Assembly (NCBI GenBank): GCA_035290865.1
Contig: DATDTM010000027.1
Span: 1-60,238 of the forward strand
DNA length: 60,238 nucleotides
From: Candidatus Nanoarchaeia archaeon
GTDB lineage: Archaea > Nanobdellota > Nanobdellia > Woesearchaeales > GW2011-AR9
Reading direction: 5' to 3'
Both the position numbers and the translations under genes were made by a program. Below, in pieces: positions 242 to 60,238 of this stretch. Every line of letters starts with the position of its first letter. The stretch's first letter is position 1. The notes beneath the pieces are model-generated. The model was not told where the DNA came from, did no database searches, and saw only the letters and a program-made list of their open reading frames with translations.

Positions 242-745
242 ATGACTTTATTAAAAACACTAGCCCAGCCGGAAATAAGAACGCTCTTTGGCAAGCGAGA
301 GCTAGTGATAATTAGAAAACAGCTTTTGGGAGTGCTTTTAAAAGGCTCAGAAAAAACCCGGCTTTCCCGAGACATCCGTAAAAAATTTGAAGCTATTGCC
401 TTGTTGATTCCCTCCATAAAAGAATTTGAACTGAAAAAAGGGGCAGAGATTAAAAGATTGGTTGAGACAGCAAAAGAGGCCATTCTGGAAACCAAATTTT
501 TCCCTCGAATAAAGAAAATTATTCTCTTTGGTTCTGTGGCAGAAAACAAGCCCACGCTTCTTTCTGATATCGACTTAGCGGTAGAATTTACTCTCCTGGC
601 CGAGGGAGAGGCTACTCTTTTCCGGAGGGAAGTGCTGGGCCAATTAAACGAGAAATTTGATGTGCAGGTTTATAATCAATTACCAGCAAAGGTTAAAAAA
701 GAAATAGATGAAAAAGGGAAAGTGGTTTATGAACGAACGCATTAA
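242..745 (+). CDS. MntA-like minimal nucleotidyltransferase antitoxin with N-terminal extension
   Basis: GSVAENKPTLLSDID fits GSX10DXD; DVQVYNQLP C-terminal motif; overlaps the downstream HEPN gene; TATA-like TTTATAAATA at about 189-198. Confidence 0.85.
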   Translation: MTLLKTLAQPEIRTLFGKRELVIIRKQLLGVLLKGSEKTRLSRDIRKKFEAIALLIPSIKEFELKKGAEIKRLVETAKEAILETKFFPRIKKIILFGSVAENKPTLLSDIDLAVEFTLLAEGEATLFRREVLGQLNEKFDVQVYNQLPAKVKKEIDEKGKVVYERTH

Positions 746-1142
746 AGATAAGATTAAAGAAATTGAAAAATATTTAATGCAGCTAGAGGAAATAGTGCCA
801 GATAGCTTGGAGGAATACCAAGAAGACTTTAAAGCTAAAGCGGCATGCGAACGTTACTTAGAAAGGTTAGTAGAAGCTGCCGAAGACTTGGCTTTTTTGG
901 CGATTAAACATCTTGACCTGGAATCTCCAGAAGAGGAAAAAGAGATATTTCAAATCCTTTCCCGCACTAAAATAATTAGTTCTGATCTCTCTGATGAACT
1001 TAAACGTGCTAAAGGGATGCGTAATGTCATTGCCCACAAGTATGGGGAAATTGATGACAAAATAACTTTTGCAGCTGCAACAGAAGAAATCGGAAGAGAT
1101 TTAAAAGAACTAATTAAATCTATTAAAAGAAAAATAAACTAA
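729..1142 (+). CDS. HepT-like (DUF86) HEPN ribonuclease toxin
   Basis: MRNVIAHKYG fits RX4HXY; ACERYLERLVEA helix typical of DUF86; start moved to ATG 729 (ORF track 708). Confidence 0.88.
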   Translation: MNERIKDKIKEIEKYLMQLEEIVPDSLEEYQEDFKAKAACERYLERLVEAAEDLAFLAIKHLDLESPEEEKEIFQILSRTKIISSDLSDELKRAKGMRNVIAHKYGEIDDKITFAAATEEIGRDLKELIKSIKRKIN

Positions 1143-5298: not shown

Positions 5299-5940
5299 AT
5301 GGCCAAAACAACTAAAAAGAAACTGGAAGAGCCTTTAGAATCTGAAGAAGCAGCAGTAGAAGAGATAAAATTAGCTGAAACTCCTTCAGAGGAGAATAAA
5401 GCTGCTTCTAAAAAGACTAAAATCAAGAGTATTTTAGTGGGAGAGAGAGTTATCACTGAAATCAGCGATGAAGCCAGAGAGCTATATAATCAATCGCGGT
5501 TTGGAACTTTAGCAGAAAGCGGGAAGGTAGAATTATCCTTATTAGAAGGACTTTACCTGGTTGAGAAAGGCAGATTGGACCTGCATAGTGAGAACGGTAA
5601 AGAAGTTAGTATTGAGACTTACATCAAAAAAGCAAGAAAGATCGAGCCTAATTTCTGGATCAGATACTGTGTCTTTAAAGATATTCGGAATCGCGGGTAT
5701 ATTATTAAAACTGCTTTGAAATTCGGGGCAGATTTCCGAGTTTATGATCGAGGAGTCAAACCCGGTGAAGATCATGCCCGTTGGATTGTCTTTCCGGTAC
5801 ATGAAGCGAGCGTCTTTACTTGGCATGAATTTTCTGCCAAGAATAGGGTAGCCCATTCGACCAAGAAAAGATTACTTATTGGAGTAGTGGATGAGGAAGG
5901 AGATGTGACCTACTACGAAATTAAGTGGATGAGGCCGTAA
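5299..5940 (+). CDS. endA: tRNA-intron (splicing) endonuclease catalytic subunit
   Basis: KTALKFGADFRVY (Tyr), GEDH (His), AKNRVAHSTKKRLLIGVVD (Lys) triad; LSLLEGLYL motif. Confidence 0.92.
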   Translation: MAKTTKKKLEEPLESEEAAVEEIKLAETPSEENKAASKKTKIKSILVGERVITEISDEARELYNQSRFGTLAESGKVELSLLEGLYLVEKGRLDLHSENGKEVSIETYIKKARKIEPNFWIRYCVFKDIRNRGYIIKTALKFGADFRVYDRGVKPGEDHARWIVFPVHEASVFTWHEFSAKNRVAHSTKKRLLIGVVDEEGDVTYYEIKWMRP

Positions 5941-10270: not shown

Positions 10271-11290
10271 ATGCTGGCAGCAAAAACAGAATTAAAGAAA
10301 GCCCAAACTTTAAAAGAATTCTTAGCTAAGAGGAAATTGATTAGTCCTGATTATCTTCCGGTGAAAGAATTTGGTTTTATTTATTTTCCCATCCTGAAGA
10401 AAATGAGGATGGCTGGAGCTGAGATAATAAATACTAAATTTTCTTTTCCAGCAAAAGAAAAACAGTTAGGAGTAGAAGAATTATTGCAGGGAAAATTAAC
10501 TGCTTCAGAATTTGGATCTTTACCGAGATCACAAGAGATAGTGGGTAAGATCATGATCTTAGAAATACCCTTGGACTTACAAAAGAAAGAGCGGGTTATC
10601 GCTGAAGCTTACCTGAAAGCGAATAAATATATCGAGACAGTAGTAAGAAAAGAAGAGATGCATAGCGGAGAATTCCGCCTGCGCAAGGTCAAAATCCTGA
10701 CGGGAAAGAAAAGCAAAGAGACTATCCATCAGGAAAGCGGGATCAAATTAAAATTAGATTTAGAGAAAACTTATTTTTCGGCTAGGTCTGGCCATGAGCG
10801 GTTAAGGGTTGCAGAACAGGTGAAAAAAGGAGAAGTGGTCTTGGTAATGTTTTCCGGGGCTGGGCCTTATCCTTTAGTTATAGCTAAGAATTCACCTGCG
10901 AAAATGGTTTATGGCATTGAGATTAATCCCTTCGCGCATCAATATGCAGTTGAAAATGTAGCTTTAAATAATCTCGACGGGAAGATTAATCTTTATTTAG
11001 GGGATGTAGGTAAGGTCATGCCTAAGATGGATTTAAAGTTCGATCGTATAGTGATGCCCCTGCCGAAAACTGGAGAGGAATACTTACCTTTAGCTCTGAC
11101 TAAGATCCAGAAAAAGGGAACAGTTCACCTGTATGCTTTTTTAAGCGAAGAGGAGATTAAAGCCGAGAAAGTTAAGATTAGAAAGATTATTCAAGCGGGG
11201 GAAAAAATGGTGCAGTTCTTAAAAGTAGTCAAATGCGGGCAGTTTGCTCCCTCGATTTTCAGGGTTTGTTTTGATCTGAGGATAGTTTAA
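10271..11290 (+). CDS. Trm5/Tyw2-family tRNA methyltransferase
   Basis: GKIMILEI, ETIHQESGIKLKLDLEKTYFSAR, VMFSGAGPY, DRIVMPLP. Confidence 0.85.
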   Translation: MLAAKTELKKAQTLKEFLAKRKLISPDYLPVKEFGFIYFPILKKMRMAGAEIINTKFSFPAKEKQLGVEELLQGKLTASEFGSLPRSQEIVGKIMILEIPLDLQKKERVIAEAYLKANKYIETVVRKEEMHSGEFRLRKVKILTGKKSKETIHQESGIKLKLDLEKTYFSARSGHERLRVAEQVKKGEVVLVMFSGAGPYPLVIAKNSPAKMVYGIEINPFAHQYAVENVALNNLDGKINLYLGDVGKVMPKMDLKFDRIVMPLPKTGEEYLPLALTKIQKKGTVHLYAFLSEEEIKAEKVKIRKIIQAGEKMVQFLKVVKCGQFAPSIFRVCFDLRIV

Positions 11291-12533: not shown

Positions 12534-13777
12534 CCATAAAACCCTTTCTGCAGATCTTCTTCCTCTTCTATTCTAACTTTTTCTATTGCAGCTAAGAAAT
12601 CTTCCTGGGTGACATGATCGCGATTTTCTCTGATGGCGAAATAACCAGCTTCAGTACAGGCAGCCCGAATCTCTGCACCAGAAAAGTCAGTCATAGTTTC
12701 AGATAATTCTTTCAGCTTGACTTTCTGGAGATTCATTTCTTTACTATGAACCTTAAGGATTTCCATTCTGCCCTTCTCATCCGGCAAACCTACCTCGATG
12801 AGACGGTCTAATCTTCCCGGACGGATAATGGCCTGATCAAGAATATCAATGCGATTAGTAGCTCCGATGATCTTGACATTATCCAGATTATTAAAGCCGT
12901 CAAGTTCAGCTAATAATTGCATGAAAGTACGATTAACTTCTCTCTCTCCAGAGGTTCCGTTTTCCATCCTGACTGAGGCAATGGCATCAATCTCATCAAT
13001 GAATACTATGGAAGGAGCTTTAGCTTTAGCCAGGTTAAACATCTCTTTAACCAATTTTGCGCCCTCGCCGATAAATTTTTGGACCAATTCTGAGCCGACC
13101 ACTTCAATGAAAGTAGCTTGGGTACTGTTAGCTACGGCTTTGGCCAATAGAGTTTTACCAGTTCCTGGCGGTCCATATAATAATACCCCTTTAGGAGGCT
13201 TAATCCCAATTTTCTTGAACAGTTCTGGTTTCTTTAAAGGCAATTCAATTACTTCTTTTACTTCCCTAATTTCTTTCTCTAATCCTCCGATCTCTTTCCA
13301 GCTTTCTTTAGGTTTGTCTACAATGACAAATTTTTCAACATCTAATTCATCGCAAACTTCAATTTTTTCTACTACATTAAGGGATTTTTGGTCTACTAAA
13401 ACCGTATCCCCTGGTTTTAAACCTTTAATCTCTACGGAAACATGGCTGTAAAACTTGTTGCCGTTAGGCAATTTTACGATGGCTTTATTCTTAGGAAAAA
13501 TAGTGCCTACCTCTCCAACCAATAAAGAAGGTTTTTTGAGGCTTTCCAGCTCACCACTGGCCTTAGCGAACATATCTTTTAATAGAGCGGCTTCATCTTG
13601 GGCTTGTTTTAAGCCTAAATAAGCGGTCCTATTTTCCTCTTCGAGCTGGTTTAATTCATCTTGGAGAACTTTATTCTCAGATTCTAAATCTAAAGGCTCA
13701 AAAGTCTCGGAATAGACAATTTTCTTATCAGATTCTTCTTTAGCAGGACTTGTAGGAAGATCAGTTATATCAGTCAT
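12530..13777 (-). CDS. pan: Proteasome-activating nucleotidase
   Basis: N-terminal coiled coil and OB domain, GPPGTGKT, IFIDEID, IRPGRLDR, C-terminal HbYX (FYG). Confidence 0.95.
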   Translation of the reverse strand: MTDITDLPTSPAKEESDKKIVYSETFEPLDLESENKVLQDELNQLEEENRTAYLGLKQAQDEAALLKDMFAKASGELESLKKPSLLVGEVGTIFPKNKAIVKLPNGNKFYSHVSVEIKGLKPGDTVLVDQKSLNVVEKIEVCDELDVEKFVIVDKPKESWKEIGGLEKEIREVKEVIELPLKKPELFKKIGIKPPKGVLLYGPPGTGKTLLAKAVANSTQATFIEVVGSELVQKFIGEGAKLVKEMFNLAKAKAPSIVFIDEIDAIASVRMENGTSGEREVNRTFMQLLAELDGFNNLDNVKIIGATNRIDILDQAIIRPGRLDRLIEVGLPDEKGRMEILKVHSKEMNLQKVKLKELSETMTDFSGAEIRAACTEAGYFAIRENRDHVTQEDFLAAIEKVRIEEEEDLQKGFYG

Positions 13778-16510: not shown

Positions 16511-17128
16511 ATGGAAAGAGGAATAGCTTTGCTGTCAGGAGGAATAGATTCTCCAGTAGCGATCAATCTGATGCAAAATCGTTTAGAGATTATTGCAGTG
16601 CATTTCCATCAAGTTCCTCTTACTGGCGAAGAAGAGTTAGTTAAAGTAAAAAAACTCTGCAAGATTCTTAGTTTGAATAAATTATATCTTATTCCTTTTG
16701 CGGAAGTGCTCAAAGAGCTTACAATAAAATGCGAACATAAAAATTATTTCATCTTACAAAAGATTCTAATGATGAAGACAGCGGAATTAATCGCGGAAAA
16801 AGAAAAGGCCAGGTATTTGATTACTGGGGAGAATTTAGCTCAGGTTTCCAGCCAAACCTTAAGCAATCTGATGGTGATTACTAAAAACATTAAATTGGAG
16901 ATATTTCGTCCGGTATTGGCTTATGATAAGCAGGAGATAATTAAGTTAGCGAAAAAGATCGGCACTTACGAAACTTCCAAAGGGCCGGAAATCTGCTGTT
17001 TGCTGGGGCCGAAACATCCGGAAACCAAAGCGGATCTGGAGATGATTAAACTGGAATTGGAAAAGCTAGATCTAGAGGGGTTGGTGAAGGAAAGTTTAAA
17101 TAGAGCGGAAGTGGTTAAGTTGGGATAG
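16511..17128 (+). CDS. ThiI-like PP-loop sulfurtransferase lacking the N-terminal THUMP region
   Basis: ALLSGGIDSPVA PP-loop, ITGENLAQVSSQTLSN, FRPVLAYDKQEII, IGTYETS; only 205 aa. Confidence 0.8.
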   Translation: MERGIALLSGGIDSPVAINLMQNRLEIIAVHFHQVPLTGEEELVKVKKLCKILSLNKLYLIPFAEVLKELTIKCEHKNYFILQKILMMKTAELIAEKEKARYLITGENLAQVSSQTLSNLMVITKNIKLEIFRPVLAYDKQEIIKLAKKIGTYETSKGPEICCLLGPKHPETKADLEMIKLELEKLDLEGLVKESLNRAEVVKLG

Positions 17129-17137
17129 GATTCAAAA

Positions 17138-18541
17138 ATGGCCCTGCAATTATATAATACCTTAACCCGTAAAAAAGAAAAGTTTGTTCCGCTGAATAAG
17201 AAAGAGGTAGGGATGTATACCTGCGGGCCTACGGTTTATAATTATGCCCATATTGGTAATTTACGTACTTATATCTTTGAAGACCTTCTGAAAAGAACCT
17301 TAATCTTTAATAAATTTAAGGTTAAACAAGTGATGAATATTACGGATGTAGGTCATCTAACTTCTGATGCAGATGCAGGAGAAGATAAGATGCTTAAAGG
17401 AGCGAAAAGGGAAAAGAAAACTGTCTGGGAAATCGCAGATTTTTATATTAAAGCTTTTCAATCAGATCTGGAAAAGTTGAATATTCTTTCTCCGACTATC
17501 TGGTGTAAAGCTACTGCTCACATTAAAGAGCAGATTGAGTTAATCAAAAAGCTGGAGAAGAAAGGTTTTACTTATGCTGCTGGTGGAAATGTTTATTTCG
17601 ACACTTCTAAACTGGAAGATTATGGGAAATTAGCCCAGCTGGATTTGGAGGCGGAACAGAAAGCTAGAGTGGAGAAAGATCAGTTTAAGAAAAATCCGCA
17701 CGATTTTGTCTTATGGTTTACTAAATCAAAATTTTCTGAGCAGGAGATGAAATGGAATTCTCCTTGGGGTCTAGGCTATCCGGGTTGGCATCTTGAATGT
17801 TCAGCGATGAGCATGAAATATTTAGGAGAACAATTCGATCTGCATTGCGGAGGGATAGATCATATTTCAGTGCATCATACCAACGAAATTGCCCAGTCAG
17901 AGGTGGCTATAGGAAAGAAGCCCTGGGTGAAATATTGGATGCATGGAGAGTTTTTAATTATTTCTGGCGGAGAGAAGATGGCCAAGTCTGGGGAAAATTT
18001 CTTGACTTTATCTTTACTAGAAGAGAAAAACTATCCAACTTTAGCTTACCGATATTTTTGCTTGGGAACACATTATCGCAAACCATTAATGTTTAGTTTC
18101 GAAGCTCTAGAAGGAGCGAAGATTGCTTATCGTAGATTAACTGAGAAAGCAGTGGAATTAAGAAAAGCGGTTGGGGAGAAGAAAGAGAATAAAACCTTGC
18201 AAAACAAATTAGTTAAACAATTTACTGCTCAAATTAATGAGGATTTAAATCTGCCCCAAGCTTTGGCTACAACTTTAGAGATGCTTCATACAGAGAAATT
18301 AAGTGCTTTTGAAAAGTATCAATTATTGATAAAGTTTGATAAAGTATTAGGGCTGGGTTTGGAGAATTTTAAAGAAGAAAAAATGGTTATCCCTGCGGAG
18401 GTCTCTAAATTAGTCGAAGAACGTGAACTTGCCCGGAAGAATAAAGATTGGAAGAAAGCAGATGAATTGAGAGAAAGAATTCAGAAGTTAGGTTATATGA
18501 TCGGGGATACGAAAGAAGGGTATGTGGTTAGTAACGTCTGA
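17138..18541 (+). CDS. cysS: Cysteinyl-tRNA synthetase
   Basis: [33 protein letters not shown]. Confidence 0.97.
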
Positions 18542-19359: not shown

Positions 19360-21798
19360 TTATTTCACAATCCCCACTTTAACTTTAAATCTTTCAGTCT
19401 CTAAAGTAGTCTTGCCTTGGAAATTAATCTCTTTAACCCTCAACACTGCTTTTAGATCTCCAAGGATATTACAAATTGATTCTTGGAAATGGTCTTCAGT
19501 ACTAACTAAAATTAATTCCCGAATCTCGTCCTTCAAAGACATTTTCTGCTCGGATTTAAATTTTCTGACCAGATCAATAATATCTATCCCTAAATCTCCG
19601 GTCAGTTCAGCTTCCTCATCAATTAACTCTTTCCTGAATTCCGGCCAAGAAGAAGTATGGATACTTTTCTCTTCCTCTTTTTGGGCGAAATAAAGCTGAT
19701 AAATTTCTTCACTAATATGGGGCATGATAGGGGCAATCAATTTTAAGATATTAAGCAATCCCCAATAAAGCCCCTGCTGGGCGCTTTTTCTAGCCTCTGC
19801 TCCTCTTTGGGCAGGATTATATAATCTGTCTTTAACTATTTCTAGATATTGGTCGCAGAAAGTATGCCAGAAGAATTGTTCTACTTCTGACTTGGTTCGG
19901 GAATATTCATAACTCTCAAAACTATCTGTACTTCCTTTAATCAATTTCTGTAATTTGCTTAGGAGCCAGCGATCGAATACTTCTATATTCTTTATTTTTT
20001 CATAAGGATTGTAATCATCTAGGTGCAGAAGATTAAACTTAGAGGCGTTCCAGAGTTTGTTAATACATTTCTGGCCGGTTAAAAGGTCTTTTTCCATGAA
20101 GGGAAGATCTTCTCCAAGCTTAGATCCAGCAGCCCAGAAACGTAAAGCGTCTGCAGAATATTTCTGGATCATCAATTGAGGTTCAATAATATTTCCTAAA
20201 GATTTAGACATTTTTCTTCCTTGTGTATCTAGGGCATGGCCGGAAATCATGACGGACTTCCAGGGAATCCGACGATGGTGATACCAGCTTTTGACTAAAG
20301 TATAAAACAGCCAGGTGCGGATGATGTCATGCGCCTGCGGCCTTAAAGAGAAAGGCTGGTCTGCATATTTGTAATCGTATTCTCCCTGATCTTTCCAGTT
20401 GCCGGCGATATCTGGAGTGAGGGAAGAAGTAGCCCAAGTGTCTAATACATCCATTTCTCCGATAAATTCTTTAGAACCGCAGGAGCAAGCTTTTTTCGGC
20501 GAGTGCAGCTGCGGATCTACCGGCAGATCTTTTAGTTCCGGAAGGATAATTTGTTGGCAGGTTTTACAAGTCCAGATCGGAATAGGAATACCAAAATGCC
20601 TTTGTCGGGAGATGCACCAGTCCCAATTCAAGTTCTGGACCCAATGATCGTAACGCACTTTCATGTGCTCTGGATACCAAATAATTTCTTTAGCTGCTTC
20701 TAACAACTCTTCTTTCCGATCTAAAACTTTAATGTACCATTGTTTAGTTTTTAAGAATTCAATCTCTGTCTTGCAACGTTCGTGCACGTTTACGGCATGG
20801 GTGATCTCCTGCTGGCGGAGAAGAAGATTTTTATCTTTCAATTGCTCTAAGATTTTTTTTCTTGCTTCCAGAATCTTTAATCCTTTTAAATCTCCAGCTA
20901 ACTCGTTTAATCTTCCGTTCTTTTCCAAAACCACGCGCAAAGGCAGATTGTAACGGAACCATTTATCTGCGTCTTCTTTATCTCCGAAAGTACAGACCAT
21001 CATCAATCCTGAACCTTTCTCTTGGTCTACGGATTCGTCAGCAAGGATGGGAACTTCATAGTTATATAGCGGAACCTGGGCGAATTTGCTTTTTAGTTTT
21101 GCATAACGCGAATCTTGAGGATGATGAAATAAAGCTACGCAGGCAGGGATCAGTTCCGGGCGGGTAGTAGAAATGATTAAATCTTTTCCTCCGCACTTAA
21201 AGATTATATCATTAAAAGAAGATTTTAGGTCTATGGATTTAAACTCAGCCTGGGCGATGGCGGTCTGGCAGGAGACGCAGAAAGTTCCTGGAGATTCCTG
21301 CTGATAAATTCTTCCCTGCTGGTATAATTCTATAAAAGAAGCTTGGGAAGTAATCTGGCAGTGCTGGTTGATGGTAGAATACGAATGCTGAAAATCTGCA
21401 GACATGCCGATATCTTTCCAGCTCTGGATAAATTTCGGTTTCTCTTCTTTGATCACTTCTTCACAGATCTTGATGAAATCTTTTCGGTCCATGTTCTTGG
21501 AAAGAAGGTTGCGGCTTTTCTCAATCAGTTTCTCTGTGGGCAGGCCATTATCGTCTGTGCCGAAGGGAAAGAAAACGTTTTTTCCTCGCATCCTTTGGAA
21601 GCGGGCGACCATGTCCTGCTGAGAATAGCTGAAAGCATGGCCAAGATGCATTTTCCCTGAGACCGTGGGTGGAGGAGTATCTATGCTATAAGTTTCTTTT
21701 TTAGGGTGAGGATGAAATTCAAAGAGTTTTTCTTTTTCCCAATACTTCTGCCATCGCGGTTCGGCTTCTTTAGGATCGTAATTCTTAGGAAGTTCCAT
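19360..21798 (-). CDS. valS: Valyl-tRNA synthetase (archaeal type)
   Basis: DTPPPTVSGKMHLGH, WDWCISRQR, KMSKS. Confidence 0.97.
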   Translation of the reverse strand: MELPKNYDPKEAEPRWQKYWEKEKLFEFHPHPKKETYSIDTPPPTVSGKMHLGHAFSYSQQDMVARFQRMRGKNVFFPFGTDDNGLPTEKLIEKSRNLLSKNMDRKDFIKICEEVIKEEKPKFIQSWKDIGMSADFQHSYSTINQHCQITSQASFIELYQQGRIYQQESPGTFCVSCQTAIAQAEFKSIDLKSSFNDIIFKCGGKDLIISTTRPELIPACVALFHHPQDSRYAKLKSKFAQVPLYNYEVPILADESVDQEKGSGLMMVCTFGDKEDADKWFRYNLPLRVVLEKNGRLNELAGDLKGLKILEARKKILEQLKDKNLLLRQQEITHAVNVHERCKTEIEFLKTKQWYIKVLDRKEELLEAAKEIIWYPEHMKVRYDHWVQNLNWDWCISRQRHFGIPIPIWTCKTCQQIILPELKDLPVDPQLHSPKKACSCGSKEFIGEMDVLDTWATSSLTPDIAGNWKDQGEYDYKYADQPFSLRPQAHDIIRTWLFYTLVKSWYHHRRIPWKSVMISGHALDTQGRKMSKSLGNIIEPQLMIQKYSADALRFWAAGSKLGEDLPFMEKDLLTGQKCINKLWNASKFNLLHLDDYNPYEKIKNIEVFDRWLLSKLQKLIKGSTDSFESYEYSRTKSEVEQFFWHTFCDQYLEIVKDRLYNPAQRGAEARKSAQQGLYWGLLNILKLIAPIMPHISEEIYQLYFAQKEEEKSIHTSSWPEFRKELIDEEAELTGDLGIDIIDLVRKFKSEQKMSLKDEIRELILVSTEDHFQESICNILGDLKAVLRVKEINFQGKTTLETERFKVKVGIVK

Positions 21799-24889: not shown

Positions 24890-25064
24890 AGTAACATTAT
24901 CAAATCTTCCGGGAGATATAAATGTTCACTCAAATATCATCTTCTGCGCCGGGAAAATATAATCTTCACTCATGATGGCGGTTATCATTAAATCCCCCGC
25001 GAAAAGTAATCTCCCCTTCCCCACCACCGCAAACCTTTAAAACTTAGCCTACTCTGAAATACTC

Positions 25065-26974: not shown

Positions 26975-28501
26975 ATGGATAAATCAAAAGAAGTAGGACC
27001 TAAAATTGAGGGTAATCCTAAAGATCTGGCTACCTTCTTCAAAAAGAAAGGTTTTATCTATCCTTCTTCTGAGATTTATGGGGGAGTGGCGGGATTATAT
27101 GATTATGGCCATCTGGGAACTAAACTTAAGAAGAATTTTGAGAATTTATGGAGAACTTATTTTTTAGGGTTGAATGATAATTTCTTTGAGATTGAAACTT
27201 CAGTAATCATGCCAGAAAAGGTTTTTCGAGCTTCCGGCCATCTAGAAAACTTTGTTGATCCATTAGTCAAATGCAAAAAATGCGAATATGTTGAGCGGGC
27301 AGATCATCTGATTGAGAAAATAACTACCAGAAGAGTAGAAGGTTTCTCTGCGGAAGAGTTGAATGAACTAATCCAGAAAAATAAAATTAGATGTCCGCAA
27401 TGTAAGCATGAACTGGATAAAGTTTCAGTACAAAACTTAATGTTTCCTCTACAGATGGGGGCTAATACTAGCAATCAAGCTTATCTCCGGCCGGAAACTG
27501 CCCAGTCACCTTACGTCAATTTTAAACTGCAGTATGAATTACTTAGGAAAAAGCTGCCTTTAGGTTTAGCTTTAATTGGCAGGGCTTACCGCAACGAGAT
27601 TTCTCCTAGAAATCTGACTTTAAGACAACGGGAGTTTACCCAAGCTGAACTGCAGATTTTCTTTAATCCTAATACTCTTAAAGAGCATGCTGATTTTGAA
27701 TCAGTTAAGAATTATCCTTTAAGAACTTTCCTGGAAGAAGATCGGAAAGCGAATAAAGAAGCGGGTAAAGTGGTGGAAAGGACTTCCGAACAGTTGGTAA
27801 AGAAAGGCTTACCTAAATTTTATGTTTATCATCTGGCTAAAATCCAGCAGTTTTATCTGGAAAAATTAAAAGTTCCTAAGGAAAAGTTTAGACTATTCCA
27901 ACTAAACGATCAGGAAAAAGCGTTCTATAATAAATATCATTTCGATCTGGAGATTGAGCTAAGCGAGCATGGCTTTACGGAAATGGGGGGATTACATTAT
28001 CGTACAGACCATGATTTAGTAGGCCATCAGAAAGTTTCTAATCAAAGTATGGAAGTTTTAGATGAAGAAACTCAGCAGAAGTTTATTCCTCATGTACTGG
28101 AATTATCCTTTGGAGTAGATCGGCACGTTTATGCTTTATTGGATCTCGCTTATAATGAAGATAAAGAGCGGGGGAATGTGGTCTTAAAACTACCTACTAA
28201 ACTAACCTCCTTCTTCTGCGCAGTATATCCTTTGGTTAAGAATAAAGAAGAAATTGTAGGTTTAGCTAGAGAAGTTTATGCTGTGATCAAAGATGGCTAT
28301 TCCTGCTTTTATGATGAAACTGCTTCAGTAGGCAGAAGGTATGCCCGAGCAGATGAGATGGGGGTAAAGTATTGTATTACTATAGACTTTGATTCATTAG
28401 AGGATAAAGCGGTTACTATCCGAGATAGGGATACGACTAAACAAGAGCGGGTGAAGATCGCTGAACTTAAGAACAAGCTTTTTGGATTGTATTTCTGGTA
28501 A
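26975..28501 (+). CDS. glyS: Glycyl-tRNA synthetase (alpha2, archaeal/eukaryal type)
   Basis: YDYGHLG, YLRPETAQ, YRNEISPR...RQREFTQAE, ELSFGVDR, GRRYARADE. Confidence 0.96.
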   Translation: MDKSKEVGPKIEGNPKDLATFFKKKGFIYPSSEIYGGVAGLYDYGHLGTKLKKNFENLWRTYFLGLNDNFFEIETSVIMPEKVFRASGHLENFVDPLVKCKKCEYVERADHLIEKITTRRVEGFSAEELNELIQKNKIRCPQCKHELDKVSVQNLMFPLQMGANTSNQAYLRPETAQSPYVNFKLQYELLRKKLPLGLALIGRAYRNEISPRNLTLRQREFTQAELQIFFNPNTLKEHADFESVKNYPLRTFLEEDRKANKEAGKVVERTSEQLVKKGLPKFYVYHLAKIQQFYLEKLKVPKEKFRLFQLNDQEKAFYNKYHFDLEIELSEHGFTEMGGLHYRTDHDLVGHQKVSNQSMEVLDEETQQKFIPHVLELSFGVDRHVYALLDLAYNEDKERGNVVLKLPTKLTSFFCAVYPLVKNKEEIVGLAREVYAVIKDGYSCFYDETASVGRRYARADEMGVKYCITIDFDSLEDKAVTIRDRDTTKQERVKIAELKNKLFGLYFW

Positions 28502-33391: not shown

Positions 33392-33482
33392 TATTAGAAA
33401 GTAAATCTAGGGGGTTTATATTTTTGTTCTTTTTTTGGGTGTGGATTGGATTTAATTTAATCCTGAAGTTAAGAAAAATGAA

Positions 33483-33636
33483 TGGGCCTGTCCGGACTTT
33501 CTTTCAAGCAATTTAATTAGGTTGCTTGCAATTCGAACCGGAGATCCTCTCGACGTCAACGAGATGTCCTTTGTGGCGATAGAGCTGCACTTTGAATTCA
33601 AAGGGCCGCTCCCCGTAGCCACTAGACCACAGGCCC
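33483..33636 (-). tRNA. tRNA-Val(GAC) with two non-canonical introns (33571-33616 at 20a/21; 33497-33531 at 59/60)
   Basis: Removing 46 and 35 nt yields GGGCCTGTGGTCTAGTGGCT|AGGACATCTCGTTGACGTCGAGAGGATCTCCGGTTCGAA|TCCGGACAGGCCCA, with perfect acceptor, anticodon and T stems; BHB-like junctions. Confidence 0.9.
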
Positions 33637-33740
33637 ATACAAAAAGGAAAAGCTTATATCCATTTATAAATTTTTGTTTGTAGAAATCTAAGAATCAGGT
33701 TTAAGTAGATTTAGTTGATTTAAAAGAGGTAAAATATAAG

Positions 33741-34862
33741 ATGTATCATAACCATCATTGGTGGAGATTCTTCCCTAAAAAGAAACTTACTCAGATTTAT
33801 ACCTCGGCAGCTTTACGCTCTTTTGCTATTTCTTTAATAAGTCTGTTTATTCCATTATATCTTTATGTGGAAAGAGGGTTTAGTTTAGAACAGACAATTT
33901 ACTTTTTCATCTTCTATGCGGTAATCTTTGCGGTAAGTTCGCCTCTTGCAGCTAAGTTCGGAGCGAGATTCGGAGCGAAACATGCTATTTTATGGAGTGT
34001 ACCTTTTTATTTATTATTTATTCTGGGTTTGTATCTTCTCCCCCAAGTGAGAGTTCCTCTGGCTTTAATTAGTGCTCTTTTTGGCCTCTCCCAAAGTTTT
34101 TATTGGATGGGCTTACATTTGATCTTCTCTAGAGCTAGTGATCATGACCATCGCGGAGAGGAGTTGGGCAAGAGAGATAGTATCTCGGTCTTAGCAACCA
34201 TGTTAGGCCCAGTAATCGGCGGATTGCTGATAAAATATACTGGTTTTAGTTTAGTTTTTAGTTTAACTGCCCTGATCCTCTTTGGCTCTGCTCTCTTCCT
34301 TTTTCTGAGCAAAGAAGATAAATATCAATACCATTTTACTTTCCGCTCCCTGATGGACAAAAGGCAATGGCGGGATGATTTGTTCTATACTGCTAGGGGG
34401 ATGCAGATCATTGCTGCAGGAGTAATCTGGCCACTGTTTATTTTTATGATCCTGAACGATTATTTTAGTTTAGGATTAACTGGATTTATTTTATCGGGAA
34501 TAAGTGCAGTACTTATTTTGGTGATAGGTAGATTAAGCGACCATACTGGAAAAAGAAGAATAATCCGTTGGGTGGTTGGTTTTGAATCTCTAGCTTGGAT
34601 ATTGAAAGCTTTTGTTGGAACGATTAGCCAGGTCTTTGGAATTACTATCTTTAGCGCTTTTACAGGAGGATTTATGGAATCTCCCATCGGAGCGATAGAA
34701 TATGATAAAGCTAAAGGAAAGGTGGCTAGTTATTTTGTGAACAGAGAGATATTTTTATGTTTAGGCAGGATTTTATTATTAGTATTTGTGTTGATGATGA
34801 ACAGTTTATCTGGGGGATTGATCTTGACCGGATTGGCGAGCTTATTGGCTTTATTATTTTAA
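33741..34862 (+). CDS. MFS transporter
   Basis: About 12 TM; AKFGARFG and IGRLSDHTGKRR motif-A-like loops. Confidence 0.88.
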   Translation: MYHNHHWWRFFPKKKLTQIYTSAALRSFAISLISLFIPLYLYVERGFSLEQTIYFFIFYAVIFAVSSPLAAKFGARFGAKHAILWSVPFYLLFILGLYLLPQVRVPLALISALFGLSQSFYWMGLHLIFSRASDHDHRGEELGKRDSISVLATMLGPVIGGLLIKYTGFSLVFSLTALILFGSALFLFLSKEDKYQYHFTFRSLMDKRQWRDDLFYTARGMQIIAAGVIWPLFIFMILNDYFSLGLTGFILSGISAVLILVIGRLSDHTGKRRIIRWVVGFESLAWILKAFVGTISQVFGITIFSAFTGGFMESPIGAIEYDKAKGKVASYFVNREIFLCLGRILLLVFVLMMNSLSGGLILTGLASLLALLF

Positions 34863-37215: not shown

Positions 37216-37905
37216 CTATTTGAAATATCCACTTGCCGTAGGGAAAAGCGAAGAGGTTGAGAAAGGTGTAAGATATATCTCTATCCTCTCTTTACCGCTG
37301 CCTAAACTCTTTCTTTTTAAAGTAATATCTCTAATCTCTCCTGTCCTTTTGAGGTGGGTTCCACCACAATATACTTTTCCAAAACTTTCGATTTGCCAAT
37401 ATCTCCGCTCATTTTTTTCATCACTAAAAGAGCTGGTTATTGGTAAGTCTGAATTAATCAGCTCCAACGCTTTCCGGGTTAATTCTGGGAAAATCTCAGA
37501 AATGTTACCCTCCCATACAAAATCCAATCTTGCTTTTTCAGAAGTTATATTTGCGCCAATTTTTTCAGGTCTGTTAAAGTGTTGATATACTAATTCCAAT
37601 ATTATTTCTGCTGCAAAATGCAGTTTCATTATTTTGTATCGTTTTTCCCAATCTATCTTAACAGTTACCTCATCATCTACATTAAAGTTAGCATTCGATT
37701 CTAAGGTATAAATTATCTCATTGAGATATTTTCTTGCTTCAATAACTTTTAATCCGTTAATTGTGCCTGAATCAGATTCCTGGCCACCTGAAAAAGCATA
37801 AAAAATAGTTTTATCTAAAGTGACCAGGTTTCCATTAGCGCTGGTTACTCGGGCTTTCTGTTCAGTTGAGTACGGATCTTTCCAAAATACTTTTTCTACC
37901 ACCAT
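37216..37905 (-). CDS. AlaX-type alanyl-tRNA editing protein
   Basis: LDKTIFYAFSGGQESDSG, WEKRYKIMKLHFAAE, ARLDF, CGGTH. Confidence 0.9.
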   Translation of the reverse strand: MVVEKVFWKDPYSTEQKARVTSANGNLVTLDKTIFYAFSGGQESDSGTINGLKVIEARKYLNEIIYTLESNANFNVDDEVTVKIDWEKRYKIMKLHFAAEIILELVYQHFNRPEKIGANITSEKARLDFVWEGNISEIFPELTRKALELINSDLPITSSFSDEKNERRYWQIESFGKVYCGGTHLKRTGEIRDITLKRKSLGSGKERIEIYLTPFSTSSLFPTASGYFK

Positions 37906-45587: not shown

Positions 45588-46307
45588 TTGGAGATAAGAA
45601 CGGTGAAGAATAAAGTAAAAGCAGCTGCTGCAGGAAAAGAGATTGCTGGAAGAGTAATCGTGGGCGTGGACGAGGCAGGTCGCGGTCCAGTTCTCGGTCC
45701 TTTAGTGATGGTAGCTTTAGCGGTAAAAGAAGAAAACATCAAGAAATTAGAATGGATGGGAGTAAAAGACAGCAAACTGCTTAGCTCTTCAGTGCGGGAA
45801 GAATTATTTGAACAGATTCGAGCAGTAGTAGAGGATTTTCGGGTAGAGATGATCGAGCCAGATGCGATTGACCTCTCTTTAACCGAATCTAACCTCAATT
45901 GGCTGGAAGCAGAGACTTCTGCGCGAATGGTTTCGGAACTGGATCCAGATAAAATCATTATCGACTGTCCCAGCCCGAATATTCCTGCCTATAAGAGTTA
46001 CTTCTCTAAAAGATTAAGCGAGGCAGTGGTTAAGAAAGCAGAATTAGTGGTGGAACATAAAGCGGACTTGAATTATATTGTAGTGGGGGCTGCTTCAGTA
46101 ATTGCCAAAGTCATTCGGGATAGGGCAGTTAATCATTTAATCTCTGAGATCGGAATTGATTTCGGTTCCGGTTATATGAGCGATCCGAAGACCCAAGAAT
46201 TTCTTGAAAAGTATCATGATAAATTTCCGCATCTGTTCAGAAAGAAATGGCAGTCTTATAAGAATGCGGAAGTGAAGAAGATGCAGAAGAGCCTGGGAGA
46301 GTTTTAA
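45588..46307 (+). CDS. rnhB: Ribonuclease HII
   Basis: GVDEAGRGPVLGP, GVKDSKLL, HKAD...VGAASVIAKVIRD, GSGYMSD. Confidence 0.95.
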   Translation: MEIRTVKNKVKAAAAGKEIAGRVIVGVDEAGRGPVLGPLVMVALAVKEENIKKLEWMGVKDSKLLSSSVREELFEQIRAVVEDFRVEMIEPDAIDLSLTESNLNWLEAETSARMVSELDPDKIIIDCPSPNIPAYKSYFSKRLSEAVVKKAELVVEHKADLNYIVVGAASVIAKVIRDRAVNHLISEIGIDFGSGYMSDPKTQEFLEKYHDKFPHLFRKKWQSYKNAEVKKMQKSLGEF

Positions 46308-46861: not shown

Positions 46862-47398
46862 ATGTTACATAATTATAACAAATGGAAAGTGCTTCAGGTT
46901 TTTTTTGATGAGCCTTTAGCGGAAGGGGGGCATCAATTAAGAGAAATCAGCCGAAAAGTTAAGCTAGCCCCACTTTCAGTGAAGAATTATCTATTGGAAT
47001 TGAAATCTGAAGAACTGGTTCTAGAGAAAAAAAGCCGGGTCCAAAGCCATCCCACTTATTGGGCAAATAGAGAGAGTGAGTTATTCTTATTATATAAAAA
47101 GACCAATACAATCTTAAAGATAAAAGAGAGCGGGTTGTTAGATTATCTGTATGATTCCTGTTTACCTACGGCGATTATTTTGTTTGGTTCAGCAGCACGG
47201 GGTGAAGATACCGAACAGAGCGATATTGATTTATTTTTACAAGCCAGCCAAACTAAGTTAAATCTAACTAAGTATGAGAAAATCCTAAAACGAGAGATTA
47301 ACCTCTTTTTCGAAGAAAACTTTTTAAAATTGAGTAAAGAGCTAAAGAATAATCTCTTAAATGGGATGATATTAAAAGGATACCTAAAAGTGTTTTAA
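46862..47398 (+). CDS. HTH-fused minimal nucleotidyltransferase (MNT)
   Basis: N-terminal HTH (QLREISRKVKLAPLSVKNYL); LFGSAARGEDTEQSDIDL fits GSX10DXD. Confidence 0.88.
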   Translation: MLHNYNKWKVLQVFFDEPLAEGGHQLREISRKVKLAPLSVKNYLLELKSEELVLEKKSRVQSHPTYWANRESELFLLYKKTNTILKIKESGLLDYLYDSCLPTAIILFGSAARGEDTEQSDIDLFLQASQTKLNLTKYEKILKREINLFFEENFLKLSKELKNNLLNGMILKGYLKVF

Positions 47399-47400
47399 AA

Positions 47401-47799
47401 ATGGATTTGATTAAAATAACTCCAGACAAAGAGAAAGCAAAGAATATTCTACAAATGGTGCTATTGATTGAAGAACGAATCAAAATACAGGACCGGGAAA
47501 AAATGGCTGCTCTGATTATAGTTGATTATTACGAAATCATCAAAGAGTTAATTACCGCCATTCTTTTAGCCGATGGTTATAAGACTCTCAGCCATAAAGA
47601 TTTAGTTACTTATTTAGAAGAAAAATTCTCGGACTTTCTGGCAGAAGAAATATACTTAATTGACCAGTTAAGAATATTAAGAAATAGGGTAGCTTACGAA
47701 GGCTTTTTGGTAAATTCTATTTATTTAAAAAAGAACGAAAATCAATTTAGAGAAATAATTAATAAACTGAGACGAATAGTTAAGGATAAAGTGAATTAA
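47401..47799 (+). CDS. HEPN domain protein (RX4Y variant)
   Basis: DYYEIIKE...SHKDL...LRILRNRVAYEG; directly downstream of an MNT. Confidence 0.75.
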   Translation: MDLIKITPDKEKAKNILQMVLLIEERIKIQDREKMAALIIVDYYEIIKELITAILLADGYKTLSHKDLVTYLEEKFSDFLAEEIYLIDQLRILRNRVAYEGFLVNSIYLKKNENQFREIINKLRRIVKDKVN

Positions 47800-47800
47800 A

Positions 47801-48604
47801 ATGACAGTTTTCACCAAGGTCAAAAAAGAGGATTTGCTGCATCTTAAAGACTTTATAGAATTAGGGCCAAAGACGATTTATGAAGAATTGCGCTTGCAGC
47901 AGAAAGAAGTTACTCTTATTCTTTATACTTCCGAGAAATTATTGCTCCAGGGAAAGAAAGAAGCGGTAGATAAGATCGCCGAGCAATTGGAAAAGAAAGG
48001 AATTGGTGAGAGAGTAGAAGAAGAGACTTTTAGGAAAGAAACGGGCACGATAATCGGCAGTGATGAAGCCTTGAAAGGAGATACTTTTGGCGGAATGGTG
48101 ATTGCGGCAGTGAAAGCGGATGATGCTTTACGCCAGAAATTGATCGAGATGGGAGTAGCTGACAGCAAAACTTTAAGTGATAAAGAGATTATGTTTATGG
48201 CCGAGAAGATTAAGAAAATTGCTCAGTGCGAGATTAAAAGCCTTTTGCCGGAAGAGTTTAACCATGAAGATAAAGTTACTGAGATGCTTAATAAATATCA
48301 TGCTCAAGTTGCAGAATATCTTAAACCGGGCAAGCATGTTGTGGATAAGTATCCTGGATGCATAGTGGGAGATATTGCGGAAGAGAAAGCAGAATCTAAA
48401 TATGTAGAAGTTGCGGCAGCTTCAGTTTTAGCCAGGGCTACTGCCCTGAAACAATTAGATTTTCTAAGTAGTCAGGCCGGTTTTACCTTGCCTAAAGGAA
48501 GTACGCATGTGAAAGATGCTTTGTTGAAGTTAAAAGAGAAAGGATTAGATGCTAAAAAGTTTGTAAAGTTAAATTTTAGGAATGTCCAGGAAATTCTAGG
48601 ATAA
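47801..48604 (+). CDS. rnhC: Ribonuclease HIII
   Basis: N-terminal TBP-like segment (VTLILYTSEKLLLQGK), IGSDEALKGDTFGG, GVADSK, KAES...VAAASVLAR, LPKGS. Confidence 0.85.
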   Translation: MTVFTKVKKEDLLHLKDFIELGPKTIYEELRLQQKEVTLILYTSEKLLLQGKKEAVDKIAEQLEKKGIGERVEEETFRKETGTIIGSDEALKGDTFGGMVIAAVKADDALRQKLIEMGVADSKTLSDKEIMFMAEKIKKIAQCEIKSLLPEEFNHEDKVTEMLNKYHAQVAEYLKPGKHVVDKYPGCIVGDIAEEKAESKYVEVAAASVLARATALKQLDFLSSQAGFTLPKGSTHVKDALLKLKEKGLDAKKFVKLNFRNVQEILG

Positions 48605-59901: not shown

Positions 59902-60021
59902 TGAAAATGGGTCTGATACCCCGCAGCTTGCTGCGACCCATTTTCAATAAAGTCGTTTCCACCAATCTTTGATTGGTGGCGCACTCCTCAGTCAAAATGT
60001 TCAGCTCTTATACATTTTGAC
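59902..60021. repeat. Triple-hairpin element including copy B of the double-hairpin repeat
   Basis: 12-bp stem 59902-59913/59935-59946 enclosing CGCAGCTTGCTGCG; 9-bp stem 59959-59967/59971-59979; 10-bp stem 59991-60000/60012-60021. Confidence 0.8.
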
Positions 60022-60238
60022 AGATGAATTAGGGAAGAAAAAAGATGTGCCGTTCTACTTCCGGGAACGGCTGAGGATGCGAGACAAGATGAAAACAGAT
60101 GAAGCAAAGAAAGTGTATTCTTTGCGGAAAATTACGGTCGAGCCGGTGTATGGGAATATCAAGCAAAATTTAGGATTCAGGGAATTTCTTCTTCGGGGCA
60201 AGGAAAAGGTGAAGATTGAGTTTAATTTAGTCTGTATT
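60020..60238 (+). mobile_element. IS1182-family (DDE) transposase C-terminal fragment, 5'-truncated and cut by the window end
   Basis: Frame 2 reads ...RDKMKTDEAKKVYSLRKITVEPVYGNIKQNLGFREFLLRGKEKVKIEFNLVCI, the RKxTVEPVxGxIK...GFRxFxLRG signature; no upstream transposase body. Confidence 0.8.

What the first reader, a model, noticed from the sequence alone, without database searches (positions are those of the whole stretch)
33483..33636. tRNA-Val(GAC) with two non-canonical introns (D-loop 20a/21 and T-loop 59/60)
Seen: a 46-nt insert (33571-33616) forms a near-perfect BHB (helix GTGG/CCAC, bulges CTA and AAA). A 35-nt insert (33497-33531) forms a relaxed BHB (TTCG/AGAA with a G-A mismatch, bulges AAT and AGT, inner stem CAAGCAA/TTGCTTG). 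Cutting after the second bulge base restores a textbook cloverleaf. There is no canonical 37/38 intron. Known: multiple non-canonical introns are typical of Thermoproteales and some DPANN (ARMAN) and need broad-specificity endonucleases. Standard annotation could miss this gene.
Basis: partly seen in the sequence, partly recalled or inferred. Interest (0 to 1): 0.65.

Follow-up and report, generated by a model that had tools for sequence, protein, structure and literature searches.

The report
Two-intron tRNA-Val gene in a Woesearchaeote
This is a real valine tRNA gene of a tiny groundwater archaeon, interrupted by two short introns in unusual places (D-loop and T-loop); this kind of gene is already known, but here the cutting enzyme encoded on the same contig lacks the extra loops usually linked to such introns.

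Summary
Removing 33571-33616 (46 nt, D-loop 20a/21) and 33497-33531 (35 nt, T-loop 59/60) gives a 73-nt tRNA-Val(GAC) that ARAGORN accepts. ARAGORN and Rfam both miss the unspliced gene.

Each insert has one junction register with bulge-helix-bulge (BHB) geometry. Intron 1 is near-canonical. Intron 2 is relaxed, with two G·A mismatches beside the 5' bulge.

The organism is a DPANN archaeon (Woesearchaeota/Nanoarchaeia) from aquifer metagenomes. Syntenic orthologues beside the same MFS gene carry 0, 1, 2 or 3 introns at four sites, and all splice in silico to tRNA-Val(GAC). The closest relative shares both introns and adds a 37/38 intron. Its exons are 73/73 identical while flanks and intron 1 have diverged, which argues against a pseudogene.

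The window also encodes the splicing endonuclease EndA (5299-5940). It is collinear with the M. jannaschii α4 enzyme and has no insertion at the two specificity-loop sites compared here.

No RNA data exist, so splicing is inferred. This is a new member of a known kind, of moderate interest.

The parts
33483..33636 (-). pre-tRNA-Val(GAC) gene, 154 nt, from G1 (33636) to discriminator A73 (33483). No CCA is encoded.
   Evidence: In-silico splicing gives an ARAGORN-accepted tRNA-Val(gac). Precursor fold z = -5.0. A syntenic intron-less orthologue lies at L013 15142-15216.
33617..33636 (-). Exon 1: acceptor 5' strand, U8, G9, D-stem 5' strand, D-loop up to position 20a.
33571..33616 (-). Intron 1, 46 nt, in the D-loop (20a/21). 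Near-canonical BHB: central helix GTGG/CCAC, bulges CUA and AAA.
   Evidence: Geometry; shuffle control 1012/100000. A homologous 50-nt intron sits at the same site in L015, with pairing-preserving changes (G-C to G·U in the central helix; G-C to A-U in the inner helix).
33532..33570 (-). Exon 2: A21, D-stem 3' strand, anticodon arm (anticodon GAC = 33557-33555), variable loop, T-stem 5' strand, T-loop 54-59.
33497..33531 (-). Intron 2, 35 nt, in the T-loop (59/60). Relaxed BHB: T-stem as outer helix, central helix UUCG/AGAA with a G·A mismatch, bulges AAU and AGU, inner helix U-A, G·A, then 7 bp.
   Evidence: Geometry; shuffle control 21/100000. It is 32/35 identical in L015; of the 3 changes, two lie in the hairpin loop and one turns G-C into G·U.
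33483..33496 (-). Exon 3: U60, T-stem 3' strand, acceptor 3' strand, A73.
33663..33670 (-). TATA-like box TTTATAAA at -34 to -27 from G1, preceded by an A-rich BRE-like run. It lies in an intergenic block shared with the divergent MFS gene.
   Evidence: The block AAAAATTTATAAATGGATATAAGCTTTTCC is conserved in the window and L015 and is recognisable in L014. Its role as a promoter is inferred.
33474..33478 (-). Run of five T beginning 5 nt after the discriminator; a likely archaeal transcription stop.
   Evidence: A T-run follows the gene in the window, L015, L014, L017 and L020. Function is inferred.
5299..5940 (+). tRNA-splicing endonuclease EndA, 213 aa, alpha-type subunit with a 40-aa Lys/Glu-rich N-terminal tail. 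It is the presumed enzyme that cuts both introns.
   Evidence: Pfam tRNA_int_endo_N and tRNA_int_endo. TIGR00324 endA 112.9 bits against a cutoff of 59.6. PDB 1a79 E = 2.7e-35 over the full length, 3iey_A E = 1e-35. Triad, L10 loop and absence of loop insertions.
19360..21798 (-). Valine--tRNA ligase, the enzyme that would charge the mature tRNA (context only).
   Evidence: NCBIfam NF009687, 1037.9 bits against a cutoff of 738.

Best explanation
The locus is the functional, single-locus tRNA-Val(GAC) gene of a Woesearchaeota-type DPANN archaeon. It is transcribed from the minus strand as a precursor of about 154 nt carrying two protein-spliced (BHB) introns.

In the precursor, D-loop bases G15-G19 pair with the 3' end of intron 1 (GUGG/CCAC). 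T-loop bases U54-G57 pair with the 3' end of intron 2 (UUCG/AGAA). Each junction therefore presents two 3-nt bulges four base pairs apart.

The EndA encoded 28 kb away on the same contig would cut after the second base of each bulge. An RtcB-type ligase, not in the window, would join the three exons. CCA addition and ValRS charging would follow.

Shown: the sequence, the geometry, orthology, exon conservation, and the presence and architecture of EndA. Inferred: transcription, cleavage by this EndA, and ligation.

Both introns were already present in the common ancestor of the window organism and its relative L015. Across the wider clade the same gene has gained or lost introns at four sites (D-loop 17/18, D-loop 20a/21, 37/38, 59/60).
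For: - The spliced product is a textbook tRNA-Val(gac). It has A73, A35, C36, U8, A14, G18G19, U33, the T-loop UUCGAAU and a G53-C61 pair (read from the sequence).
- BHB geometry appears at one register only for each intron. Shuffle controls give 1e-2 and 2e-4. Precursor fold z = -5.0.
- In every relative found, a tRNA-Val(GAC) sits in the same place next to the same MFS gene: intron-less in L013, and with 1, 2 or 3 BHB introns in L014, L017, L020 and L015. All are ARAGORN-positive after splicing.
- The cloverleaf shows 5 compensatory pairs and 96% pairing; 0/500 shuffles reach that and slid registers collapse.
- Window against L015: exons 73/73, intron 1 32 identities in 54 columns, intron 2 32/35, flanks 68-79%, MFS DNA 87%. 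P(0 changes in 73 nt) is about 4e-5 at 13% divergence.
- The helix substitutions seen in the introns keep pairing.
- EndA with an intact Tyr/His/Lys triad is encoded in the same window and is 70-90% conserved across Woesearchaeota.
- A TATA-like box and a T-run flank the gene.
- The 59/60 position, relaxed hBH motifs and up to three introns per gene are documented in other archaea (PMC3239211, PMC8450103).
Against: - There is no RNA evidence. The only metatranscriptomes from these sites show zero coverage.
- Intron 2's BHB is relaxed. The thermodynamic MFE leaves a 9x9 internal loop instead of the central helix.
- Intron 1's outer helix is offset by the unpaired A14.
- The EndA found lacks the loop insertions compared here that the literature ties to cleavage of relaxed motifs (PMC5829648, PMC3488258).
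- The rest of the genome could not be searched for a second tRNA-Val(GAC), a beta subunit or RtcB.
Confidence: 0.85

Rival explanations
1. Disrupted pseudo-tRNA: two insertions inactivated the gene, they are not removed, and valine GUY codons are read by another copy.
For: No RNA evidence of splicing. Intron 2's motif is relaxed. The rest of the genome was not searchable for a second copy.
Against: Exons are 73/73 identical to L015 while surrounding DNA has diverged 13-30%. Both inserts keep BHB geometry, with pairing-preserving substitutions. Orthologues in five other lineages are also intact after splicing. A promoter-like box and a T-run are retained. No other tRNA-Val was found in the 60-kb window plus about 9 kb beyond it.
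Confidence: 0.05
2. A real gene, but the alpha4-like EndA in the window is not sufficient. The relaxed T-loop junction would be cut by a different or additional factor elsewhere in the genome (a beta-type structural subunit forming a heterotetramer, or another nuclease).
For: The literature links relaxed BHB cleavage to (alpha-beta)2 or epsilon2 enzymes or to the L1/L2/L3 loops (PMC5829648, PMC3488258, PMC3239211). The window's EndA has no insertion at the L2 or L3 site. Its best PDB hit is the catalytic alpha subunit of the N. equitans heterotetramer.
Against: The enzyme keeps the full N-terminal domain and an acidic L10 loop (VDEEGD) like the M. jannaschii homotetramer, whereas N. equitans alpha lacks it. 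All 120 best homologues are single units of about 200 aa. [quoted passage not shown]
Confidence: 0.12
3. Assembly or chimera artefact: the inserts are mis-joins of reads from different tRNA genes.
For: tRNA exons are shared between species in the same metagenomes, and many short contigs match only the exons.
Against: The identical 361-nt stretch lies inside long contigs (4.5-10 kb, depth 15-32) in independent runs X1, X3 and X4 and inside a 483-nt contig (depth 5) in X9. It is also present in JGI, ENA and Logan assemblies from different samples. A diverged homologue with the same two introns exists in L015.
Confidence: 0.01

Closest known systems
ARMAN-2 (Ca. Micrarchaeum acidiphilum) pre-tRNA-Cys(GCA) with a 59/60 hBH intron, and pre-tRNA-Pro(GGG) with two T-loop introns (Fujishima et al. 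2011, PMC3239211)
   Same: A DPANN host; an intron at exactly 59/60 in the T-loop; a relaxed BHB with the T-stem as outer helix; more than one non-canonical intron per gene.
   Different: ARMAN-2 uses a three-unit epsilon2 EndA whose ASL loop (K161) gives the broad specificity (PMC3488258). Here the EndA is a single alpha unit with no ASL-type insertion. The isotype differs, and one intron is in the D-loop.
Multi-intron tRNA genes of Thermoproteales such as Pyrobaculum (Sugahara 2008 and Fujishima 2010, as summarised in PMC4033280 and PMC8450103)
   Same: Up to three BHB introns per gene at D-, anticodon- and T-loop positions. Intron content changes quickly between related species, as seen here with 0-3 introns in one orthologous gene.
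   Different: Those hosts have (alpha-beta)2 EndA with the Crenarchaea-specific loop. Their introns show sequence families that indicate transposition, whereas no paralogous intron copies were found here.
Methanopyrus kandleri pre-tRNA-Glu(UUC) with a D-loop HBh' intron plus a canonical intron (Kaneta et al. 2018, PMC5829648)
   Same: A D-loop intron with an imperfect BHB, processed by an EndA that lacks the specific loop.
   Different: The M. kandleri enzyme is an (alpha-beta)2 heterotetramer and cuts the non-canonical intron inefficiently. The enzyme here looks alpha4-like, and the second intron is in the T-loop rather than at 37/38.
DPANN tRNA/EndA survey including Ca. Woesearchaeota RBG_13_36_6 (Kaneta et al. 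2018, Figure 7, PMC5829648)
   Same: The same clade. It reports alpha4-type EndAs together with more disrupted tRNA genes, and notes that some DPANN tRNAs are missed and need manual curation.
   Different: That paper attributes the trend to an L3 (N. equitans-type) loop. The 12 Woesearchaeota EndAs aligned here have a 6-residue gap at that site and M. jannaschii spacing.

Membership tests
Archaeal tRNA gene with BHB (protein-spliced) introns at non-canonical positions | Exons are collinear and join into a complete cloverleaf tRNA with a sensible anticodon. | tested here: met
   73-nt tRNA-Val(gac) by ARAGORN. Cloverleaf covariation across orthologues.
Archaeal tRNA gene with BHB (protein-spliced) introns at non-canonical positions | Each exon-intron boundary lies in a 3-nt bulge, with the two bulges separated by a 4-bp helix (hBHBh') or a relaxed form (HBh'/hBH). 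| tested here: met
   Intron 1: central helix 4/4, both 3-nt bulges, inner helix 3 bp, outer helix offset by A14. Intron 2: outer helix 5 bp, central helix 3/4, inner helix 8/9, which is the relaxed form. Shuffle controls.
Archaeal tRNA gene with BHB (protein-spliced) introns at non-canonical positions | The host encodes a catalytically competent EndA. | tested here: met
   Window 5299-5940: both Pfam domains, TIGR00324 above cutoff, and Tyr/His/Lys conserved.
Archaeal tRNA gene with BHB (protein-spliced) introns at non-canonical positions | The host encodes an RtcB-type ligase to join the exons. | not tested
   No RtcB among the window's ORFs.
Archaeal tRNA gene with BHB (protein-spliced) introns at non-canonical positions | A mature spliced RNA (and excised or circular introns) exists in cells. 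| not testable with these tools
   Only four small metatranscriptome assemblies from these sites are available, and all show zero coverage.
Hosts with broad-specificity EndA ((alpha-beta)2, epsilon2, or loop-bearing alpha4) | A specificity-loop insertion near the active site (CSL/L1, ASL/L2 or N. equitans-type L3), or a multi-unit architecture. | tested here: not met
   Single alpha unit. The core is collinear with M. jannaschii alpha4 (no indel above 2 aa), with a 6-aa gap against the N. equitans loop and no ASL insertion. L1 was not compared directly; it is reported to occupy a similar structural location to the ASL. A separate beta subunit elsewhere in the genome was not testable.
tRNA pseudogene | Relaxed constraint on the exons, with broken stems or lost invariant bases. 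| tested here: not met
   Exons 73/73 against L015 despite 13-30% divergence around them. All invariant positions are present.
Split or permuted tRNA genes | tRNA pieces are encoded at separate loci or in permuted order. | tested here: not met
   The three exons are contiguous and in order within 154 nt.
Self-splicing (group I) tRNA introns | An intron of about 200 nt or more with a ribozyme core, usually in the anticodon loop. | tested here: not met
   The introns are 46 and 35 nt, lie in the D- and T-loops, and there is no Rfam intron hit.

The most novel reading that the evidence does not exclude
Woesearchaeota may process non-canonical-position and relaxed BHB introns with a plain alpha4-type EndA that has no insertion at the compared specificity-loop sites. 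[quoted passage not shown] The broadened specificity might come from something not yet described, such as the clade-wide Lys/Glu-rich N-terminal tail ending in a Lys patch, or the conserved Lys in the SGKVEL surface loop. Combined with 0-3 introns at four sites in a single orthologous gene, this clade would be a natural system for watching tRNA intron gain and loss.
Probability: 0.25. Interest if true: 0.6.

Novelty: new member of a known kind. Interest (0 to 1): 0.42.

Why it matters
- Annotation: this tRNA-Val(GAC) locus, the only one found in the DNA examined, is invisible to ARAGORN and to the Rfam tRNA model. Genomes of this clade can therefore look as if they lack tRNAs that they actually have. 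This matters for the completeness and "reduced translation capacity" claims often made for DPANN.
- Evolution: one orthologous gene, anchored by synteny, shows 0, 1, 2 or 3 introns at four positions among relatives with 57-94% identity in the neighbouring protein. This gives a clean case of intron turnover outside the Thermoproteales.
- Enzymology: substrate and enzyme are on the same contig, and the enzyme lacks the compared loop insertions said to be needed for relaxed motifs. The rule that EndA architecture predicts intron type is therefore directly testable with two short RNAs and one 213-aa protein.

Tried and rejected
- An exact search for the 38-nt middle-exon core in the GTDB representative genomes found 0 hits, so the organism itself is not among the representatives.
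- Alignment-guided splitting against the intron-less orthologue mis-placed the D-arm junctions for the window and L015. It was replaced by explicit BHB scoring.
- Intron mobility: neither intron core recurs in the window at up to 3 mismatches. The T-loop intron pattern has no match in GTDB genomes. No intron similarity was seen between the distant orthologues.
- Hidden tRNAs: an intact T-arm scan, a GC-island scan and an acceptor-stem scan of all intergenic gaps, plus about 8.7 kb beyond the window end, found nothing convincing besides tRNA-Asn and this gene.
- RNA evidence: four metatranscriptome runs from the same studies gave zero coverage.
- C/D-box guide RNA inside the introns was rejected: there is no RUGAUGA or CUGA box and the introns are too short (read from the sequence).
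- A reading on the plus strand was rejected: the cloverleaf, anticodon and T-loop only make sense on the minus strand.
- The supplementary tables of PMC5829648 that might list Woesearchaeota intron positions are not held.

Full report
OBSERVATION

The stretch 33483-33636 reads as a tRNA only on the minus strand. ARAGORN calls this tRNA-Val(gac) with a standard cloverleaf.

That product has a 7-bp acceptor stem, U8, a GUCU/GGAC D-stem and a D-loop AGUGGCUA with G18G19. Its anticodon loop is UUGACGU, its T-loop is UUCGAAU, and the discriminator is A73.

The unspliced gene is invisible to ARAGORN with or without its intron option, and to the Rfam tRNA model even at E<=10. The anticodon loop is continuous, so there is no 37/38 intron.

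BHB GEOMETRY

I scored every junction register that gives the same mature sequence. The model was the canonical layout: outer helix, 3-nt bulge, 4-bp central helix formed by the 3' end of the upstream exon with the 3' end of the intron, 3-nt bulge, inner helix, and a cut after the second bulge base.

- Intron 1: central helix GUGG/CCAC 4/4, bulges CU|A and AA|A, and an inner helix that starts C-G, G-C, G·U. The outer helix is the D-stem, displaced by the unpaired A14.
- Intron 2: the outer helix is the intact 5-bp T-stem. The central helix is UUCG/AGAA with a G57·A mismatch. The bulges are AA|U and AG|U. The inner helix is U-A, G·A, then 7 bp. The 5' cut site is therefore flanked by two G·A mismatches, which makes this a relaxed motif.

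Shuffling the intron letters reaches the observed central-plus-inner pairing in 1012/100000 trials for intron 1 and 21/100000 for intron 2.

The whole precursor folds at -62.4 kcal/mol. The MFE equals the centroid, z = -5.0, and 0/200 shuffles fold as well. The fold shows all four tRNA stems and both intron hairpins. The MFE leaves intron 2's central helix open as a 9x9 internal loop, which is another sign of a relaxed motif.

ORGANISM AND AUTHENTICITY OF THE LOCUS

GlyRS (26975-28501) and EndA homologues are named Candidatus Woesearchaeota or Nanoarchaeota archaeon by NCBI. The nearest GTDB representative carrying the syntenic locus is a "Candidatus Nanoarchaeia archaeon" MAG.

The same contig occurs in JGI, ENA and Logan assemblies of aquifer and sediment metagenomes. 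The 361 nt around the gene are 100% identical inside contigs from four independent DNA runs. It is not an assembly artefact.

ORTHOLOGUES

The tRNA lies head to head with an MFS transporter gene (33741-34862). Using that protein as an anchor, together with a GlyRS relative, I recovered the syntenic gene from five other lineages. After in-silico splicing all are 73-nt tRNA-Val(gac) by ARAGORN, and each insert again has one BHB register.

| Locus | MFS identity to window | Introns |
|---|---|---|
| L013 | 58% | none (ARAGORN finds it directly) |
| L014, L018, L019 | 58% | 37/38, 33 nt |
| L017, L016, L021 | 63% | 37/38, 18 nt; 59/60, 51 nt |
| L020 | 60% | different D-loop site (17/18), 31 nt; 37/38, 32 nt |
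| L015 | 94% | same D-loop site, 50 nt (homologous); 37/38, 16 nt; 59/60, 35 nt (32/35 identical) |

The lineages form a star at 57-65%, with the window and L015 as sisters. The D-loop and T-loop introns therefore predate the window/L015 split. The 37/38 intron was either lost in the window lineage or gained in L015.

Across the five distinct spliced sequences the cloverleaf is 96% paired and has five pairs with changes on both sides. 0/500 shuffles reach that, and every slid register collapses.

FUNCTIONAL GENE RATHER THAN PSEUDOGENE

Window against L015:

| Segment | Identity |
|---|---|
| Exons | 73/73 |
| Intron 2 | 32/35 |
| Intron 1 | 32 identities in 54 alignment columns |
| 5' flank | 71% |
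| 3' flank | 68-79% |
| MFS gene DNA | 87% |

At 13% neutral divergence the chance of no change in 73 nt is about 4e-5.

The substitutions that fall in intron helices keep pairing. These are G-C to G·U in the central helix of intron 1, G-C to A-U in its inner helix, and G-C to G·U in the hairpin of intron 2.

A TATA-like TTTATAAA box lies at -34 to -27, preceded by an A-run, and a T5 run follows the discriminator. Both features recur in relatives. Their function is inferred. CCA is not encoded.

THE ENZYME

Annotating the window revealed an EndA gene at 5299-5940. It has both EndA Pfam domains and scores 112.9 bits on TIGR00324 against a cutoff of 59.6.

Residues 41-213 align end to end with the M. 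jannaschii alpha4 enzyme (1a79, E = 2.7e-35). The best hit overall is the N. equitans catalytic subunit (3iey_A).

I aligned it with 11 Woesearchaeota homologues, M. jannaschii, N. equitans alpha and the ARMAN-2 alpha unit. The alignment shows:

- Tyr149, His159 and Lys190 are conserved.
- The acidic L10 loop (VDEEGD) that mediates homotetramer contacts is retained, as in M. jannaschii. N. equitans alpha lacks it.
- There is a 6-residue gap where N. equitans has its basic "specific loop". That loop is L3 in Kaneta et al. (PMC5829648) and residues 90-98 in PMC3488258.
- There is no ASL-type (L2) insertion.
- No indel larger than 2 residues separates the core from the M. jannaschii enzyme.
- The only extra is a variable Lys/Glu-rich N-terminal tail of roughly 35-65 residues that ends in a Lys patch.

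The Crenarchaeal loop (L1) was not compared directly. PMC3488258 reports that it occupies a similar structural location to the ASL.

The literature holds that alpha4 enzymes need a strict BHB, and that relaxed motifs need (alpha-beta)2 or epsilon2 enzymes or a loop-bearing enzyme (PMC3239211, PMC3488258, PMC5829648). Either this alpha4-like enzyme tolerates these motifs, or a partner is encoded elsewhere. I could not search the rest of the genome.

The window also encodes ValRS (19360-21798), a Trm5b-like methyltransferase, ThiI, CysRS, GlyRS and AlaXM.

MECHANISM

Shown: the precursor sequence, its BHB-type junctions, orthology, constraint on the exons, and the presence and architecture of EndA.

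Inferred: transcription from the TATA-like box; EndA cutting after the second base of each bulge, leaving 2',3'-cyclic phosphate and 5'-OH ends (established EndA chemistry); exon joining by an RtcB-type ligase (not in the window); CCA addition; and charging by ValRS.

The D-loop G18G19 and T-loop U54-C56 are sequestered in the two central helices. The D-loop/T-loop tertiary contacts can therefore form only after both introns are removed (inference).

COMPARISON AND NOVELTY

Several things are already documented. Introns at 59/60 with relaxed hBH motifs occur in ARMAN-2 (PMC3239211). D-loop introns occur in M. kandleri (PMC5829648). Up to three introns per gene, and rapid intron turnover, occur in Thermoproteales (PMC4033280, PMC8450103).

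Kaneta et al. already surveyed a Woesearchaeota MAG. They reported alpha4-type EndAs with more disrupted tRNAs in DPANN, and warned of tRNAs that remain undetected. This gene is therefore a new member of a known kind.

Three things go beyond that:
- the clean syntenic series of 0-3 introns at four sites;
- enzyme and substrate together on one contig;
- the absence of the compared loop insertions from this clade's EndA.

WHAT LED NOWHERE

- No RNA coverage in the four metatranscriptome runs from the same studies.
- No paralogous intron copies in the window or in GTDB genomes.
- No other disrupted tRNA in the window or in about 8.7 kb beyond its end.

VERDICT

I put 0.85 on this being a functional two-intron tRNA-Val(GAC) gene. 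Interest is moderate (0.42).

Noticed in passing
window 5299-5940 (+): The tRNA-splicing endonuclease gene lies on the same contig as the interrupted tRNA. It is alpha4-like, has no insertion at the L2 or L3 specificity-loop sites, and carries a 40-aa Lys/Glu-rich N-terminal tail that is present but variable in all Woesearchaeota homologues aligned.
   Followed up: yes
L015 1233-1406 (-): The closest relative's tRNA-Val(GAC) has three introns: a D-loop intron of 50 nt, a canonical 37/38 intron of only 16 nt, and a T-loop intron of 35 nt. Three is the maximum number reported for archaeal tRNA genes. Its mature sequence is identical to the window's.
   Followed up: yes
L014, L017 and L020 (tRNA-Val orthologues upstream of the MFS gene): Three of the four orthologues that carry a 37/38 intron have C33 instead of the near-universal U33 (anticodon loop UCGACAU). 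In L014 and L017 C33 pairs with a G in the BHB central helix; in L020 that position is a mismatch. The window, L015 and L013 have U33.
   Followed up: partly
L017 (also L016 and L021), about 95 nt upstream of the tRNA-Val gene: A 14-nt direct repeat, TTGGGCCTGTAGTC, duplicates the 5' end of the tRNA between the promoter-like box and the gene. It could be an integration (att-like) scar or an insertion in the leader.
   Followed up: no
window 33568/33616, run X1: A low-depth (2.5x against 15x) 127-nt DNA contig joins these two positions with one extra A. It is a near-identical tRNA-Val without the D-loop intron and with T22, from a rarer close relative in the same aquifer sample.
   Followed up: partly
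window 5299-37905: There is an unusual density of tRNA-related genes: EndA, a Trm5b-like methyltransferase (10271-11290), ThiI (16511-17128), CysRS (17138-18541), ValRS (19360-21798, -), GlyRS (26975-28501) and AlaXM (37216-37905, -).
   Followed up: partly
window 242-1142; 2020-2610; 46862-47799: MNT/HepT-type nucleotidyltransferase-RNase (toxin-antitoxin-like) genes: an overlapping NTase (242-745) and HepT (708-1142) pair, plus further NTases at 2020-2610 and 46862-47398. The last is followed by an unassigned 132-aa ORF.
   Followed up: no
window 45588-46307 and 47801-48604: Two RNase HII paralogues lie within 3 kb of each other.
   Followed up: no
window 59954-60070 and L022 about 13370-13470: A repeat of about 115 nt with an internal palindrome (GTTTCCACCAATC...GATTGGTGG...) occurs twice within 1.5 kb, next to a DDE transposase fragment (L022 11885-12178). 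It could be a MITE or an IS end.
   Followed up: no
window 24909-25015: A 106-nt intergenic element is closed by a 7-8-bp stem, GGGAGAT/ATCTCCC. It is not tRNA-like, has no Rfam match, and remains unexplained.
   Followed up: no
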